IMG/VR virus record: IMGVR_UViG_3300032931_000293
Strand: one strand, 5' to 3'
Length of the DNA stretch: 64,000 bases
Origin: an uncultured virus (IMG/VR IMGVR_UViG_3300032931_000293)
Lineage: Duplodnaviria; Heunggongvirae; Uroviricota; Caudoviricetes
In this document: positions 8,010 to 64,000 of the stretch, piece after piece
Layout of the letters: every line of letters starts with the position of its first letter
How positions within the stretch are numbered: the first letter of the stretch is position 1
The notes under the pieces: model-generated
What the model saw: only the letters and a program-made list of their open reading frames with translations
Database searches by the model: none
What the model was told of the DNA's origin: nothing
Made by a program: the position numbers and the translations under genes

Positions 8010-8089
8010 AATAATTAATTTATTATTGAGATAGTTGTTGACTTTATTAAAAAGTTAATTATAATATATTTAAGAAAGGAAATGACACT

Positions 8090-8296
8090 ATGAGTATAGT
8101 AGCACAAAGCGGAATTGATCAACTTATCAATAAGATTGAATCAACCGAACTAAAAGTAAAACAACTACATCCTAGTAAAAAGGGAAAGGTATTAATAGCA
8201 AATGCTAAACAAGCAGTTGACTATGAGTTTGGTAGAGATATTAACCAAATGGAATGGGCAGTAAGATATCTTCAAGAGTTAGATAAAATTCTTTGA
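8090..8296 (+). CDS. Hypothetical protein, monocistronic
   Basis: TTGACT-16-TATAAT upstream, AAGGA RBS, terminator downstream. Confidence 0.65.
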   Translation: MSIVAQSGIDQLINKIESTELKVKQLHPSKKGKVLIANAKQAVDYEFGRDINQMEWAVRYLQELDKIL

Positions 8297-35569: not shown

Positions 35570-36848
35570 TTGTGGCAAGGAAACCCAATGGATTTATCCG
35601 TTGGGAGGAATTGCCACCCTTTCTAAAACTTATTCTACCACAAAGAAAAAGAAAGTCAAAAGATTTTTCCGAAAAGTGGTATAATTGATTATAAATATAG
35701 TATGAAAGGAGGAAAAGATGAAGTTATCAATTAAGTGTAAAATACTACCAAACGAAAAACAACATCAAGAACTCCTTAATGTTATGAAAACATTTAATCT
35801 TGCTTGTGATTGGATAAGCCAAAAAGCATTTGAAACTAAAACATATAATAAAGTCAATCTACATAAAATAGTTTATTACGAAGTTAAACAAAGATTTAAC
35901 TTATCAAGCCAATTGGCAGTTAGAGCAATTGGAAAAGTAACCGATTGTTATAAAAATTGGAAACAGAAAAATAAAGTATTATCGTTTAGAGAATTAGGTT
36001 CAGTTGACTACGATTCAAGAATTTTAACTATTAAACAAGATAGTATTTCTATAATGGGTATGGGTAAACGAATTAAATTACCATATCGTTGTAAGAAAGA
36101 ATTAAGTAATTTTGATTTAAGTTGTCAATCAGAATTAACTTACGATAAAGTTAAAAATAAGTTTTATATTACATTCTTTGCCGAAACAAGTGAGGAAGTT
36201 CCAATTAAAACAAATAAATTTTTAGGTGTTGACTTGGGAATAGTCAATCTTGCTACTTGCTCTGATGGTGAAGTAATTTCCGGTGAAAAAATAGAAAGTT
36301 ATAGAAAGAAAATAACAGGATTGAAGGCAAGATTACAAGCAAAAAGTAGTAAGTCGGCAAAAAGACATTTGAAGAAAATAAGTAAAAAGGAGACAAGTTA
36401 TAAGAAAGATGTAAACCATTGTATAAGCAAGAAGTTAGTCCAAAAAGCAAAGACACTTAAAGTTGGGTTGAAATTAGAAGACCTTAACTTTAAGAAACAA
36501 GTTCCGCAAAAAGGTTGGACTAAAGAATGGAAAGATAGTAATGCTCGCAGAGGTAAGTGGGCTTTTGGTCAATTAAGGCAATTTATTGATTACAAGGCTA
36601 AACTTGCCGGAGTTCCTGTCCTATATATTAATCCGGCGTATACTAGCCAAAAATGTAGTAATTGTGGTCATACTTGCGAAGAAAATAGACTTTCTCAAAG
36701 TGAGTTCGTTTGTATACAATGTGGTTATTCTGCTAATGCCGACTACAATGCTTCAGTAAATATTTCTAGGGCTGAAATCAACCAGCCTATTGTAGACATT
36801 CGCAAGAGTGATTTACAAACACAATCCCTTTAGGGGTTGGGTAGTTGA
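35570..36848 (+). mobile_element. Non-autonomous IS200/IS605 (IS1341-like, TnpB-only) element; ends approximate
   Basis: Left hairpin 35572-35617 with TTTA loop, right hairpin CAATCCC-TTTA-GGGGTTG then GGTAGTTGA; opposite strand to flanking operon; no tnpA in window. Confidence 0.7.
35718..36833 (+). CDS. tnpB: TnpB RNA-guided endonuclease
   Basis: RuvC I GVDLG, RuvC II LEDL, YTSQKCSNCG/CIQCG Zn finger, RuvC III NADYNAS. Confidence 0.9.
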   Translation: MKLSIKCKILPNEKQHQELLNVMKTFNLACDWISQKAFETKTYNKVNLHKIVYYEVKQRFNLSSQLAVRAIGKVTDCYKNWKQKNKVLSFRELGSVDYDSRILTIKQDSISIMGMGKRIKLPYRCKKELSNFDLSCQSELTYDKVKNKFYITFFAETSEEVPIKTNKFLGVDLGIVNLATCSDGEVISGEKIESYRKKITGLKARLQAKSSKSAKRHLKKISKKETSYKKDVNHCISKKLVQKAKTLKVGLKLEDLNFKKQVPQKGWTKEWKDSNARRGKWAFGQLRQFIDYKAKLAGVPVLYINPAYTSQKCSNCGHTCEENRLSQSEFVCIQCGYSANADYNASVNISRAEINQPIVDIRKSDLQTQSL

Positions 36849-50900: not shown

Positions 50901-51962
50901 ATGAGAGACTCTACTTTTTCTAACTTATATACAAAATTCCAAGAATTAGGAATAACTGTTAATGAGGTTATTCCTACGCCAACCGGAAAGTATGATGGAA
51001 TTGTTACATATAACTATACTAATATAACAACTCGTATTAGTAGATTAGATAAATTTTACTCTAACAGTAAATTATCTTTCAAGTTACATAAAGATATATT
51101 AAAGGATACTAAAAGATATAAAGACACCCGATATGTAGTAAATAAAAATGGAGATGTATTTAGCACTATAGGAGCAATAAAAAAGATAAAACCACAAATA
51201 AAACATGGGTGTCTTTATTTTAATTCATCATTATCACATAAACTAATAATATCTAATGTAGTTATGGAATCTTGGGGAAACGTAAAACCAACCGAAGACT
51301 CGTATATTCGACATTTAAATGATAATAGAATGGATTGTAGATTAGAAAATCTTAAATGGGTATCAGATATACGAGATGAATATATAGATAATTTATATAA
51401 AATGGGAGTAGTATTAACTAATTGTGTGAAAAACGAGACTGGATCTTATATGGGAACTATACAATATCTCCACACTAATATTGTTAAAAAAATAAATGAT
51501 ATTGGAGATTTCTATAAAAACTATAAAAATAATTTTAAACTTAATAAAGATATTTTAAAGGATACTAAACAATATAAAAATACTCATATATTTTCAAATA
51601 AAAATGGGGACATATTTAGTGTAAATGGATTAGTTAAAAGACTAAATAATGTATCTAAAAATGGATATGTTGATGTCAGGGGTATTCCGGCACATCATAT
51701 AGTATTGGAATCTTGGGGATTTCATCGACCATCAAATAACCATATAGTAAGGCATCTAAATGATATACCTAGTGATAATAGATTGGAAAATCTTAAATGG
51801 GATTTTCAAATAGTTAATATGAAAGATAAAGATGTTAATGAAGATAAAAGAAAAGAATTACTTAAACGGCTTTTAGATGCTAATCTATTTACTTTAGAAG
51901 AAATTTCAATTCTTATGAAAGTTAAATTAGAATCAATTGAAGGTATTATAAAAACTTTTTGA
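50901..51962 (+). CDS. HNH endonuclease with an internally duplicated module
   Basis: RHLNDNRMDCRLENLKW and RHLNDIPSDNRLENLKW; duplicated KDILKDTKxYK. Confidence 0.8.
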   Translation: MRDSTFSNLYTKFQELGITVNEVIPTPTGKYDGIVTYNYTNITTRISRLDKFYSNSKLSFKLHKDILKDTKRYKDTRYVVNKNGDVFSTIGAIKKIKPQIKHGCLYFNSSLSHKLIISNVVMESWGNVKPTEDSYIRHLNDNRMDCRLENLKWVSDIRDEYIDNLYKMGVVLTNCVKNETGSYMGTIQYLHTNIVKKINDIGDFYKNYKNNFKLNKDILKDTKQYKNTHIFSNKNGDIFSVNGLVKRLNNVSKNGYVDVRGIPAHHIVLESWGFHRPSNNHIVRHLNDIPSDNRLENLKWDFQIVNMKDKDVNEDKRKELLKRLLDANLFTLEEISILMKVKLESIEGIIKTF

Positions 51963-54255: not shown

Positions 54256-54415
54256 GATTTGGTGTATCACACACTGCTCAAGGGGATGTCCTCTTGAATG
54301 TCTGGTATTGCCAGGTTGTAAGTTGCTTTATAGTAACTTGTTATGCTTTTAAGTTACTTTGAATGTCCTTAAAGATGTCCTATTGACAAGTTGAGTTGAT
54401 GTGTTAGGATATGAG

Positions 54416-54470
54416 CCGCTATCACTATGAACGTGAGCAGAAGCCCTAGGTGTGTCGCCTAGGGTTTTTT
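54416..54470 (+). ncRNA. Candidate sRNA of about 55 nt
   Basis: Own promoter 54383-54410 and terminator CCCTAGG/CCTAGGG-T6. Confidence 0.5.
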
Positions 54471-54506
54471 GTTTGACTTTATCGAGTGGCTTGATATGAT
54501 ATGAAT

Positions 54507-56402: not shown

Positions 56403-56517
56403 CAAGTAGCTTCGTGGGTGAAATCCCACCCGAACCTTGAGTAGTGTATGATACACATTATCAAGTTACTTGGAATTGACTACTTGACTTTTACTCTGAA
56501 GCTACTAGGATACTATT

Positions 56518-57465: not shown

Positions 57466-57587
57466 ATCAAGTAGCCTTTTAATCCCTCATGGGCTTAGAA
57501 GCTCCCCTTGAATAGTGTATCATACATATTATCGAGTTACCTGGAATTATCCTCTTGACTTCCATTCCTACTTGCTAGGATACATTC

Positions 57588-58803: not shown

Positions 58804-58919
58804 AGGGATTATGAGTAGCTCGGAAAGCTACTCCACCCCTTGAGTAGTGTGTGATACGGATTATCGAGTAACTTGGAATTAACTTCTTGACATTCATTCC
58901 TAGTTATTATAATATTCAT

Positions 58920-59434: not shown

Positions 59435-59572
59435 CTTTTCTTCCTAAACCTTCGAGTAGCCTTCTAAGCCCTTACTGGTTTGGAAGCTACCCTTGAGTAG
59501 TGTGTGATACGGATTATCGAGTAACTTGGAATTAACTACTTGACATTGATTGGAAGGCATTAGACTAAGAGC

Positions 59573-60441: not shown

Positions 60442-60480
60442 AATAAAAGTGGCTTAGAGTAATTCTAAGCCACTTTTATT
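60442..60480. terminator. Bidirectional terminator, perfect 17-bp inverted repeat
   Basis: AATAAAAGTGGCTTAGA/TCTAAGCCACTTTTATT. Confidence 0.8.
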
Positions 60481-61620
60481 ATTAGATATATACTGTGTGA
60501 TACATTGCTCAAGGAAAACCAATGGTTCTTTTTCGTAATATGGTATTTCAATAAGATGGATATTGTTTTTATTGCAATACTCTTTTTTAATATTATCATT
60601 ATATTTAATTCGTTCAAATGTTTTTTCACCACCCCAACCTTTAATTGGTTTAAAATGTTGTTCTCCTTGATATTCAATTGCTATCTTGTAATTAGATATA
60701 TAAAAGTCAAATGGTAATTTATTTTTCTTTCCTCTACAATCATCAAAGGACTTTTGCGGTTCAAATAATATATTTTTTCTTTTTAAATAATTATATATTA
60801 GTTTTTCCCCTTTTGATTTTTTACATATTGGGCATCCGCATTGTATTCCAATATGACTAAGAGAATTTTGTAAGAATTCTCCATGAATTGGACAAATTAT
60901 TATTCCTTTTGTTTGAGCATTTACATAAATAAATTTATCGTAGCGATAGAGATTATTATGAATTTTATTAGCTCTTTCTATAAATTCTTCAAGTGTCTTT
61001 CTAGTTTTATTTCCATTACTATCCAAATAACAGTTTCTACACCCACAATGTGAAAGATGTTGGTCGGGTGGTTGCTCAAATATCCCATGTTTACTACATA
61101 TTATTTTTATTGGTGTTTGGGAGTCAATGTATTGGGATACACTATAATCATATCTATCTCCGTGAATCTCTTTTGCTTTTGAGATAAAATCCAATAAATT
61201 TCCTCTAGTTTTTAGTACTTTTTCCATTATTCCACATTTTCTACATCCCTTTCCGTATATATGAGTGTGAGCCGTTTGTTCAAAAATTCCATGGATAGGG
61301 CAAATTATCTTGACTTTTCTTTCTGATCCTATATATTCCACCAAACTATAGTCATACTTACTTTTATGTTTTAAAGTGGAAATGTCAATAAACTTTTGTG
61401 TTGTGAGTGTTGTTTTTTCAATATTTACTAATTTTCCACATTTTTTACAACCATATTTCCTATGACAATCGGGAGTTTGTTCAAATTCTCCATGAATTGG
61501 ACAAATTATCTTGATTTTAGTGTAAGCATTCTTATAAACAACTAAAGAATAATCGTACTTATTTTTGTGAAATAATTTAGATCTATTAATAAATTCATCT
61601 TGTGTTAACGCTTTAGGCAT
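60454..61620 (-). CDS. Homing endonuclease with DUF723-like Zn repeats and C-terminal PD-(D/E)xK domain
   Basis: Four YDYS..Y......IICPIHG.F.Q repeats; LPFDFY...IEYQGEQH; AT-rich, opposite strand. Confidence 0.8.
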   Translation of the reverse strand: MPKALTQDEFINRSKLFHKNKYDYSLVVYKNAYTKIKIICPIHGEFEQTPDCHRKYGCKKCGKLVNIEKTTLTTQKFIDISTLKHKSKYDYSLVEYIGSERKVKIICPIHGIFEQTAHTHIYGKGCRKCGIMEKVLKTRGNLLDFISKAKEIHGDRYDYSVSQYIDSQTPIKIICSKHGIFEQPPDQHLSHCGCRNCYLDSNGNKTRKTLEEFIERANKIHNNLYRYDKFIYVNAQTKGIIICPIHGEFLQNSLSHIGIQCGCPICKKSKGEKLIYNYLKRKNILFEPQKSFDDCRGKKNKLPFDFYISNYKIAIEYQGEQHFKPIKGWGGEKTFERIKYNDNIKKEYCNKNNIHLIEIPYYEKEPLVFLEQCITQYISNNKSGLELL

Positions 61621-62654: not shown

Positions 62655-62951
62655 ATGCGTATTATTATTTGTCTTATTATTTCTATTGCGATTACCGGTT
62701 GTGCCCCTAGCATCGGGGAAGTTCAGCAAGTAGGTATCACTGACCAAAAAAACGTTATTGAACGAAATGCACCTAAGCCTCGATTTACTATCATATATCA
62801 AGGCAAGTTTTCAGGTGGTGAAGCGGATTTTAAGACATATCGAGCAATTTATACGATTATTGACAATTCAACGGGTCAAGAGTTTCTTGGAATTGAAGGG
62901 GTTGGAGTTTCTAGTTTGACTTCAAGCGGCAAGACTTCTTGCGAAAAGTAA
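62655..62951 (+). CDS. Lipoprotein
   Basis: ITGC lipobox; IIDNSTGQEFL. Confidence 0.6.
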   Translation: MRIIICLIISIAITGCAPSIGEVQQVGITDQKNVIERNAPKPRFTIIYQGKFSGGEADFKTYRAIYTIIDNSTGQEFLGIEGVGVSSLTSSGKTSCEK

Positions 62952-62986
62952 CTTGACATTCCATAAAGCAACATAGAATCAAACCC

Positions 62987-63217
62987 ATGAGCAATCCAAC
63001 TAAAGAATATCTTGAAGGTGAAACTCGGGCAATGGAGGATGATGCGGGAGTTAGTATGCAAAGTCCTTTCGCAAATCCATACGATGAACGGGATGAGCCG
63101 GAAAAGGCTTTCGAGTGGCAATGTGGTTATAACAATTTTAACCATAACCGTAGGAAGAATATGATGGCACAGATGGAGAGTGAAGGAAGTTGGTACGACC
63201 CATACGATTCCCCTTGA
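62987..63217 (+). CDS. Small acidic leaderless protein
   Basis: ATG 7 nt after TAGAAT; NPY......W..GY; stop inside the next -35 box. Confidence 0.6.
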   Translation: MSNPTKEYLEGETRAMEDDAGVSMQSPFANPYDERDEPEKAFEWQCGYNNFNHNRRKNMMAQMESEGSWYDPYDSP

Positions 63218-63246
63218 CTTCTCGAAAAAGACTATAGAATAAGACA

Positions 63247-63565
63247 CATAACCCACAAGGAAGAAACCTTAAGATGCGAATAACAAGCCTGTCCTAACTA
63301 TCTCCTACGATGGTTAGAGGGGCAAAGAGCGTAGGATAGGCTTCGAGTGTTGGATGGTTCCTATGCTCCTCGAAGCGACTTGCTTTCAGCCGGATGGTTT
63401 AGTCAAGCCATTGAACCGAGGATAAGCTTTCATTGGTTAGCAAGGGATTAAAGGCCCTACCCACTTGCCTAGAAAACAAGGGTGATAAGTGAAGCCGAGG
63501 GAATAAGTTGACTTGCTCCAAAGGGCATATAACTAGACGGGGGTTGCTTGGCTCCAACCCCCCGC
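63247..63565 (+). ncRNA. Candidate structured ncRNA of about 320 nt
   Basis: Promoter 63214-63240, no + ORF, consecutive stems, terminal CGGGGGTTG/CAACCCCCG hairpin. Confidence 0.6.
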
Positions 63566-63598
63566 TTGACTTCTTGAAAAAGACTATAGAATAACTCT

Positions 63599-63803
63599 CG
63601 TTGAAAACGATATAGAGTGGCTTAAGAGTGGGACGAGAATCATATGTTGCTAGTACCAACACCATGATATGGATAATCGGCGGGTATCAAACCATAATCC
63701 TATCTAATCAATAGGCAATGTCACTTGGGATAATATCCCTAACACTTCCGGGTGGAACAACCGATAACGGAAACTCAATCCTACTCCTAAGCTACTTTAT
63801 ATC
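63599..63803 (+). ncRNA. Candidate multibranch ncRNA closed by a 25-bp helix
   Basis: Promoter 63566-63592; 63609-63633 pairs with 63779-63803 (21 Watson-Crick, 3 G.U, 1 mismatch). Confidence 0.6.
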
Positions 63804-63900
63804 TTGACAATCCATGAACCGCCTTGGGTCAGAATGACCAAAGTATGTAGCACGATTCATACTAATGTACTCTACCCCAAGACCGTTCATAGATTGCCAA
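63804..63900. repeat. 97-nt imperfect hairpin
   Basis: 31-nt arms with 24 Watson-Crick pairs plus inner AGTATG/CATACT. Confidence 0.75.
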
Positions 63901-64000
63901 AAGTAATCTACCATTCAGGTCATTGAAAGTAGCTTGACTAGCTATCAAGTGAAGGTATGATGCAAAGCGGTTAGCTACTGCAAAGCATGACGTTCAATCC

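What the first reader, a model, noticed from the sequence alone, without database searches (positions are those of the whole stretch)
63214..63565. Promoter-driven, ORF-free, densely structured RNA of about 320 nt
Seen: after TTGACT-15-TAGAAT there is no + ORF but successive helices: AAGCCTGTCCTA/TAGGATAGGCTT (overlapping an alternative CTAACTATC/GATGGTTAG), GCTTCGAG/CTCGAAGC, ATGGTTT/AAGCCAT, a GCTTTCATT..AGTGAAGC-closed junction, TGCTC/GGGCA and a final GC-rich hairpin. Wobbles are G.U on +. I do not recognise tmRNA, RNase P, SRP or intron signatures. Inference: an undescribed phage ncRNA expressed as a cassette of the early array.
Basis: partly seen in the sequence, partly recalled or inferred. 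Interest (0 to 1): 0.7.

Follow-up and report, generated by a model that had tools for sequence, protein, structure and literature searches.

The report
Pseudoknot-chain phage RNA, possibly tmRNA-derived
An uncultured large phage appears to make, from its own early promoter, an uncatalogued RNA of about 320 bases folded as a row of pseudoknots; it partly resembles the message half of the bacterial ribosome-rescue RNA (tmRNA) without the tRNA-like half, and may act as a decoy for the host's translation machinery, but no relative was found and its function is not shown.

Summary
The promoter (one of 22 alike in this early array), the lack of a + gene and each listed helix are in the sequence. 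A better model is a head-to-tail row of H-type pseudoknots: one strong (63290-63336), two moderate (63395-63438, 63440-63483), one weak. Their total energy is reached by 4 of 1000 shuffles and 0 of 239 neighbouring tiles; most of the signal comes from the first. Several tmRNA landmarks lie in tmRNA order and spacing: a resume-like site (best of 11,988 array positions), pseudoknot sizes and junctions, and the start of a T-arm. But there is no tRNA-like domain, no helix 2 or 5, the tag-like frame ends DG, not AA, and Rfam, ARAGORN and held-out profiles are negative. It is not a tmRNA. Best reading (0.4): a tmRNA message-domain derivative acting as a decoy, probably for ribosomal protein S1. Main rival (0.35): an unrelated pseudoknotted RNA. 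No homologue was found, so covariation and expression are untested.

The parts
63214..63240 (+). Early promoter of the array type, TTGACT-15-TAGAAT; start of transcript inferred near 63247
   Evidence: 28 of 29 bases shared with the promoter at 63566
63247..63286 (+). Weakly structured 5' leader with a 4-bp hairpin (63257-63271) and an AAGGA motif 12 nt before an ATG (7-codon frame 63274-63297)
   Evidence: spacing in nine array genes is 6-9 nt
63268..63287 (+). tmRNA resume-like site; first codon GCG at 63276, A at -4, purine at -3, U at -1, but A at -5
   Evidence: 9.5 bits, rank 1 of 11,988 + positions in 52-64 kb, rank 13 of 127,960 in the window; for the role of these positions
63276..63317 (+). 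Tag-like frame ANNKPVLTISYDG-stop, running through pseudoknot A; no C-terminal AA
63287..63339 (+). Pseudoknot A (strong): stem 1 63290-302/63309-24, stem 2 63303-09/63330-36, then TAG; resembles tmRNA pk2
   Evidence: (best H-type pseudoknot in the last 20 kb on either strand; 9 of 500 shuffles)
63340..63397 (+). Unit B: bulged hairpin 63340-50/63363-76 with only a weak second stem, then TGG; its loop can also pair with 63327-36 (competing helix)
63395..63438 (+). Pseudoknot C (moderate): stem 1 63395-403/63410-18, stem 2 63406-10/63434-38, then TAG
63438..63489 (+). Pseudoknot D (moderate): stem 1 63440-46/63460-68, stem 2 63454-58/63479-83, A-rich loop 3, then TAAG
63496..63545 (+). tmRNA-like 3' landmarks: pk4-end-like motif at 63496-63507 and GAC plus T-stem-like 5' strand at 63536-63545, 28 nt apart (29-31 nt in 21 tmRNAs); the conserved helix-2 strand between them is missing
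63538..63564 (+). Terminal GC-rich hairpin directly before the next -35 box; probable terminator or processing signal, U-tract poor
   Evidence: pair probability 0.98; not listed by the terminator scan; hairpins abut several other -35 boxes

Best explanation
A stable, early phage RNA of about 290-320 nt folded as a row of H-type pseudoknots, derived from the message and pseudoknot half of tmRNA after loss of the tRNA-like domain, helix 2 and helix 5. Shown from sequence: promoter, no gene, pseudoknot potential above chance, partial tmRNA landmarks in order. Inferred: transcription; descent from tmRNA; and the mechanism. Lacking an acceptor end it cannot be charged or enter stalled ribosomes by itself, so it most likely works as a decoy for a protein that binds this half of tmRNA, first of all ribosomal protein S1. 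That would dampen host trans-translation and translation of leadered host mRNAs while sparing the many leaderless early phage mRNAs. Descent 0.4; descent plus S1/SmpB decoy about 0.2.
For: Pseudoknot energy without the terminal hairpin and without any junction rule: 4 of 1000 shuffles; with the whole cassette 0 of 500 shuffles and 0 of 239 tiles in all four settings, near the median of real tmRNA post-tag regions. Pseudoknot lengths 44-47 nt against 39-57 (10th-90th percentile) in tmRNA; 3 of 3 are followed by T[AG][GA], as are 104 of 212 tmRNA pseudoknots and 147 of 567 in shuffles. Resume-like site ranks 1 of 11,988; ANN is the commonest tag start (13 of 81) and one of 81 tags is ANNQPVLAAA. 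Resume-to-T-stem distance 268 nt against 238-269. Chain of landmarks: 1-7 of 1000 shuffles, 0 of 723 tiles. Post-tag part aligns better than shuffles to 22 tmRNAs of the phylum of G002 (2 of 100). S1 binds the message domain and pseudoknots but not the tRNA-like domain (PMC1168896, passages) and is dispensable for leaderless mRNAs (PMC3296737, passages); 14 of 30 promoter-like sites in the array have an ATG 6-7 nt behind them.
Against: No homologue, so no covariation. Profile HMMs from 81 held-out tmRNAs do not single it out (30-80 of 500 shuffles, 7-140 of 760 tiles), after a first set of 11 had (2-3 of 300). A covariance model of pk2-pk3 gives no hit here (its structure was poor). The landmark chain depends on block boundaries chosen after seeing the sequence: 3 to 254 of 500 shuffles over eight set-ups, 1-10 bits against medians of 76-96 for true tmRNAs. 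Without pseudoknot A the energy test is weak (112 and 29 of 1000); count-first chains gave 0-15 of 300; 1-2 of 20 E. coli rRNA tiles reach the same energy. Three other tmRNA groups gave no alignment signal (24-74 of 100). A at -5 is the one substitution reported as harmful there (PMC2481249, passages). The same 3' stretch also gave a weak match to 23S rRNA, so it matches G-rich profiles easily. The host, and whether it has an S1 of the E. coli type, are unknown.
Confidence: 0.4

Rival explanations
1. A real, pseudoknotted phage ncRNA of its own family with no tmRNA ancestry; the pseudoknots protect it from nucleases and present binding sites as a scaffold or decoy for an unknown host or phage protein. 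The tmRNA-like motifs are chance.
For: All evidence for expression context and pseudoknots; negative tmRNA profile and covariance tests; scheme-dependent landmark chain; RNA-only neighbours with no family.
Against: Does not explain the joint order and spacing of resume-like site, junction motifs and T-stem start.
Confidence: 0.35
2. A decayed remnant (old tmRNA or other RNA gene, or filler) caught between two recently duplicated promoters, without present function.
For: Whole-cassette MFE z only -1.5; competing helices and no single dominant fold; no homologue in any collection searched; near-identical flanking promoters suggest recent cassette shuffling (PMC2839356 abstract and section 14).
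Against: Stems are intact with G.U on the + strand; intact promoter and closing hairpin; the clade itself was not found in the viral or genome collections, so lack of homologues says little.
Confidence: 0.1
3. A leader-peptide or ligand switch: translation of the 7-codon frame at 63274 chooses between the competing 5' helices and controls read-through at the terminal hairpin into the RNA cassettes downstream.
For: Five mutually exclusive strong helices in 63285-63376, folds within 0.8-4.4 kcal of the best; AAGGA upstream of the ATG; the terminal loop can pair with 63401-08 or 63493-99.
Against: Shine-Dalgarno spacing 12 nt against 6-9 in nine array genes; a new promoter follows the hairpin at once, so attenuation would control little; no riboswitch family.
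Confidence: 0.07
4. A working message domain used in trans with a separate tRNA-like piece (host or phage), adding a tag that ends in DG and escapes proteolysis.
For: Resume-like site and open frame with stop; tag-less mini-tmRNAs exist in phage DS6A (PMC11915505, passages); a possible small tRNA-like gene starts at about 63967 and runs off the window.
Against: No helix-2 strands to hold a partner; no tRNA-like piece detected in the window; the frame would have to unwind pseudoknot A.
Confidence: 0.05
5. A mimic of a type III antitoxin (pseudo-ToxI kind) that neutralises a host abortive-infection nuclease.
For: Phage ncRNA made of pseudoknots is the known form (PMC3475682, passages).
Against: ToxI units are near-identical 36-nt repeats; here units are 44-47 nt and internal repetition is not significant (21 of 300 shuffles); no Rfam match.
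Confidence: 0.03

Closest known systems
One-piece tmRNA (SsrA), Rfam RF00023
   Same: Resume-like site with ANN start, row of 44-47-nt H-type pseudoknots with TAG/TGG/TAAG junctions, GAC and T-stem start about 260 nt after the resume codon.
   Different: No 5' acceptor strand, D-loop, helix 2, pk1 or helix 5; no T-loop, acceptor 3' strand or CCA; only about 30 nt before the resume codon (88-100 in tmRNA); tag ends DG (AA in 77 of 81); ARAGORN and Rfam negative.
Tag-less (no-CDS) tmRNA of mycobacteriophage DS6A and permuted two-piece tmRNAs
   Same: Phage-borne partial or rearranged tmRNA; the DS6A form inhibits the host tmRNA (PMC11915505, passages).
   Different: Those keep the tRNA-like domain; this would be the mirror case. 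The form table of that paper lists standard, permuted, intron and two no-CDS forms, no form without the tRNA-like domain, and truncated forms were rejected from the database.
PeSL cassettes of T4-type phages (PMC2839356)
   Same: Repeated strong sigma-70-like promoters with stem-loops, often G/C tracts, between small cargo units (section 14).
   Different: Cargo there is protein genes; here the cargo is an RNA, spacers are 15-16 nt and many mRNAs are leaderless.
Pseudo-ToxI of phage PhiTE (PMC3475682)
   Same: Phage-made pseudoknot RNA acting as a decoy.
   Different: Tandem near-identical 36-nt repeats there; dissimilar longer units here.

Membership tests
tmRNA (RF00023 and permuted forms) | tRNA-like domain: acceptor stem with G3.U70, T-loop, 3' CCA | tested here: not met
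   ARAGORN none; Rfam none at E <= 10; only GAC and a T-stem-like 5' strand at 63536-45
tmRNA (RF00023 and permuted forms) | Helix 2 joining tRNA-like and message domains, and pk1 before the resume codon | tested here: not met
   About 30 nt upstream of the resume-like codon against 88-100; helix-2 3' block scores only 3.2 bits at 63524
tmRNA (RF00023 and permuted forms) | Resume context (A at -4, purine at -3, pyrimidine at -1, Ala/Gly first codon) | tested here: met
   9.5 bits, between the 10th and 25th percentile of true sites, rank 1 of 11,988; A at -5 is unusual (3 of 81)
tmRNA (RF00023 and permuted forms) | Short tag ending in hydrophobic AA, stop in the loop of helix 5 | tested here: not met
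   Frame ends DG, stop inside pseudoknot A stem 1; AA in 77 of 81 tags
tmRNA (RF00023 and permuted forms) | Row of H-type pseudoknots pk2-pk4 after the tag | tested here: inconclusive
   Energy test positive but carried mostly by pseudoknot A; sequence profiles and covariance model negative; no covariation data
tmRNA (RF00023 and permuted forms) | Alanylation, SmpB binding, trans-translation | not testable with these tools
   bench work
23S rRNA domain V mimic | Sequence and structure of helix 89 and the L1 stalk | tested here: not met
   Pairwise not significant; HMM at most 2.7 bits, equalled or passed by unrelated tiles; covariance model no hit at 63477-63555
Type III antitoxin / pseudo-ToxI | Tandem near-identical repeats of about 36 nt | tested here: not met
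RNase P, SRP, 6S, group I/II intron, riboswitches, small ribozymes, GOLLD/ROOL/OLE/HEARO | Match to the Rfam model | tested here: not met
   the same search does find a group I intron and tRNAs in relative L005. Very divergent or permuted members could be missed.

The most novel reading that the evidence does not exclude
A giant phage keeps only the message and pseudoknot half of tmRNA and makes it from a strong early promoter to soak up ribosomal protein S1 (and perhaps SmpB), tilting the host ribosome towards the phage's leaderless mRNAs and blunting ribosome rescue: RNA-based host takeover with a part taken from the host's own rescue RNA.
Probability: 0.18. Interest if true: 0.85.

Novelty: new variant of a known kind. 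Interest (0 to 1): 0.55.

Why it matters
Published partial tmRNAs keep the tRNA-like half; a form with only the message and pseudoknot half is not among the forms listed in the 2025 tmRNA database paper (passages seen) and would be invisible to ARAGORN and Rfam, which rely on the tRNA-like part. It would give a natural test of the old question of what tmRNA's pseudoknots do by themselves, and a new way for phages to control translation. Even without tmRNA descent, it marks the start of a block of at least three uncatalogued structured RNAs in an unstudied clade of large phages, and shows that MFE z-scores miss such RNAs.

Tried and rejected
Homologues: BLASTN in phages and plasmids, none. DNA patterns: viral contigs (15, 31 none; 32, three hits, and 74, twenty hits, all chance), metagenomes (25 none), genomes (75 none; 100, 22 hits, seed only). 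Through neighbouring or core proteins: viral and genome collections (30 one weak hit, 50) gave no relative; metagenomes gave 9 loci, of which L005 and L006 are close kin but hold no copy of the cassette. No whole genome is held; those loci are not held as records. No sequencing run was listed, which is no evidence on expression. Earlier notes by place or sequence: none. 23S domain V mimic rejected. Minus-strand frames 63399-63665 and 62876-63256 have no PHROGs match; stop-codon recoding leaves no long + frame. CsrB-like GGA repeats, T-box, FMN, c-di-GMP, twister, pistol, HDV-like, RNase P and group I motifs were considered by eye from recalled consensus features and dropped for lack of the required pairings and of Rfam hits. 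An 85-nt internal duplication is not significant (21 of 300; the pattern count was circular). Literature: ten searches showed no paper on a tmRNA without tRNA-like domain, but none was worded exactly for it, the library lacks most subscription papers, and the supplements of PMC11915505 and PMC10690425 were not examined and could hold related sequences. L185 (genome marked unpublished) was left out of all analyses; of the other 92 tmRNA loci ARAGORN read 81.

Full report
Context. The window is part of a 71,257-base contig of an uncultured phage; a relative at 84% identity for one protein lies on a 385,866-base contig, so the genome is probably very large. No whole genome is held. From 52 kb on, small + strand genes sit behind a repeated promoter: 22 sites on +, 0 on -, 16 with a 15-nt spacer. 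In a looser list, 14 of 30 sites have an ATG 6-7 nt behind the -10 box, that is leaderless, and most others an AAGGA-led gene. This resembles PeSL arrays of T4-type phages (PMC2839356: abstract and section 14). The last three sites (63214, 63566, 63934) carry no gene. A relative, L005 (67% identity for the 59916 protein), has the same array with a tRNA cassette about 5 kb downstream of that gene, so this region plausibly begins the stable-RNA block (inference).

Observation. Promoter, lack of a gene and the listed helices are real. Whole-cassette MFE is unremarkable: z -1.49 on +, +0.43 on -. Strong local helices are in excess on + only (6 against 0.9, 0 of 300 shuffles; - strand 48 of 300), and only in 63241-63380 and the end hairpin. 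No Rfam family, tRNA or tmRNA is found.

Structure. Comparison with real tmRNAs suggested pseudoknots, which MFE folding cannot see. A simple H-type finder gives pseudoknot A (63294-63336) as the best in the last 20 kb on either strand, reached by 9 of 500 shuffles. A finder allowing one bulge gives A, C (63395-63438) and D (63440-63483) in all four settings, with 0 of 500 shuffles, 0 of 239 tiles and 1-2 of 20 E. coli rRNA tiles reaching the total, which is near the median of true tmRNA post-tag regions. Two of those settings count the end hairpin as a pseudoknot and two use a junction rule taken from tmRNA; with neither, 4 of 1000 shuffles reach it, and without A only 112 or 29 of 1000. Unit B between A and C is a good hairpin with a weak second stem; counting it, the units run head to tail from 63290 to 63483 (0 of 300 shuffles in that setting, 4-15 of 300 in the three others). 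The finders and their cut-offs are my own and were written after seeing the sequence. So A is well supported, C and D moderately, B weakly; none has covariation support.

Resemblance to tmRNA. For: a resume-like site 11 nt before A, best of 11,988 + positions in the array and 13th of 127,960 in the window, about 0.03 for a cassette of this length; a frame starting ANN, the commonest tag start (13 of 81); pseudoknot lengths and junctions like tmRNA's (3 of 3 junctions; 104 of 212 in tmRNA, 147 of 567 in shuffles); a pk4-end-like motif and a GAC/T-stem start that are each top-scoring and 28 nt apart, against 29-31 in 21 tmRNAs; resume-to-T-stem distance 268 against 238-269; landmark chain 1-7 of 1000 shuffles, 0 of 723 tiles. 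The number of pseudoknots varies among tmRNAs, and some cyanobacteria have two small ones for pk4 (PMC1168896, passages). Against: no tRNA-like domain, helix 2, pk1 or helix 5; tag ends DG (AA in 77 of 81); A at -5 is the harmful change there (PMC2481249, passages); HMMs from 81 held-out tmRNAs do not pick it out (30-80 of 500) although an HMM from 11 did (2-3 of 300); the pk2-pk3 covariance model has no hit; the chain test ranges from 3 to 254 of 500 with block choice and scores 1-10 bits against medians of 76-96; alignment of the post-tag part is above chance for one of four groups (2, 24, 27, 74 of 100). It is therefore not a tmRNA; whether it descends from one is open (0.4). Earlier scan notes describe tmRNA copies without the tRNA-like half in marine phages. 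They are unchecked, share no detected sequence with this one, and I use them only as the reason for retesting.

Mechanism. Without an acceptor end the RNA cannot be charged. S1 binds tmRNA's message domain and pseudoknots but not its tRNA-like domain (PMC1168896) and is dispensable for leaderless mRNAs (PMC3296737, passages, which also notes that S1's role in trans-translation is debated). An abundant early RNA of this build would best serve as an S1 (or SmpB) decoy that favours the phage's leaderless mRNAs. Every step of this is inference; the host is unknown. The mirror case is published: the tag-less form of phage DS6A inhibits host tmRNA (PMC11915505, passages). Phage tmRNAs behind early promoters are known (PMC9004378, passages).

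Rivals. Unrelated pseudoknotted RNA (0.35); decayed remnant (0.10); leader-peptide switch using the 7-codon frame (0.07); message domain used in trans with a non-degrading tag (0.05); type III antitoxin mimic (0.03; PMC3475682, passages). A 23S rRNA mimic was tested and rejected.

Homologues. None was found in phages, plasmids, viral, metagenome or genome collections. The clade's proteins were also not found in the viral and genome collections, so this is weak evidence. A published survey of viral structured RNAs covers only 29-151 nt in its IMG/VR set (PMC10690425, passages); phage ncRNAs of unknown role are known from phiKZ (PMC8545117, passages). Other papers were seen only as search listings.

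Verdict. Probably a real, uncatalogued phage RNA (about 0.85-0.9), with a different fold from the one proposed, possibly a new half-form of tmRNA. Interest 0.55.

Noticed in passing
window 63595-63803 (+): Second RNA-only cassette behind a near-identical promoter (63566): a 25-bp closing stem with G.U on +, around a multi-hairpin junction; z -4.7 on +, -3.7 on -; no Rfam family, no pattern hit in viral contigs. A clearer folding signal than the flagged cassette.
   Followed up: partly
window 63804-63903 (-): Long hairpin of about 40 bp that folds far better on the minus strand (-52.8 kcal, z -9.1, several G.U) than on plus: a minus-strand RNA or single-stranded DNA signal inside a + strand RNA block. 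Unexplained.
   Followed up: partly
window 63934-64000 (+): Another array promoter with no gene; the transcript would begin near 63967 with a hairpin and a T-loop-like stretch at the window's edge, possibly a tRNA or small tRNA-like gene cut off by the window.
   Followed up: no
L005 8000-8620: tRNA cassette of the related phage, missed by ARAGORN: a tRNA split by a group I intron (8024-8216) and two more tRNAs.
   Followed up: partly
L005 8277-8410: Between those tRNAs, an RNA-like stretch ending in CCA with two apparent H-type pseudoknots (by eye); no Rfam match.
   Followed up: no
L005 9435-9500 and 10045-10115: An apparent H-type pseudoknot in the leader behind promoter 9407, and a long hairpin after a 58-codon gene (by eye).
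   Followed up: no
window 60454-61620 (-) and 50901-51962 (+): Two free-standing homing-endonuclease-like genes; the first is AT-rich (GC 0.25-0.33) and interrupts the early array on the opposite strand.
   Followed up: no
window 35718-36833 (+): TnpB/Cas12f-like gene of IS605 type.
   Followed up: no
window 56440-56480, 57510-57555, 58845-58887, 59500-59540: A repeated non-coding block of about 45 nt directly before four array promoters, a likely recombination or regulatory module.
   Followed up: no
window 54383-54472: A 90-nt promoter-to-promoter unit holding little but a long hairpin (-23.5 kcal): possibly another small RNA cassette.
   Followed up: no
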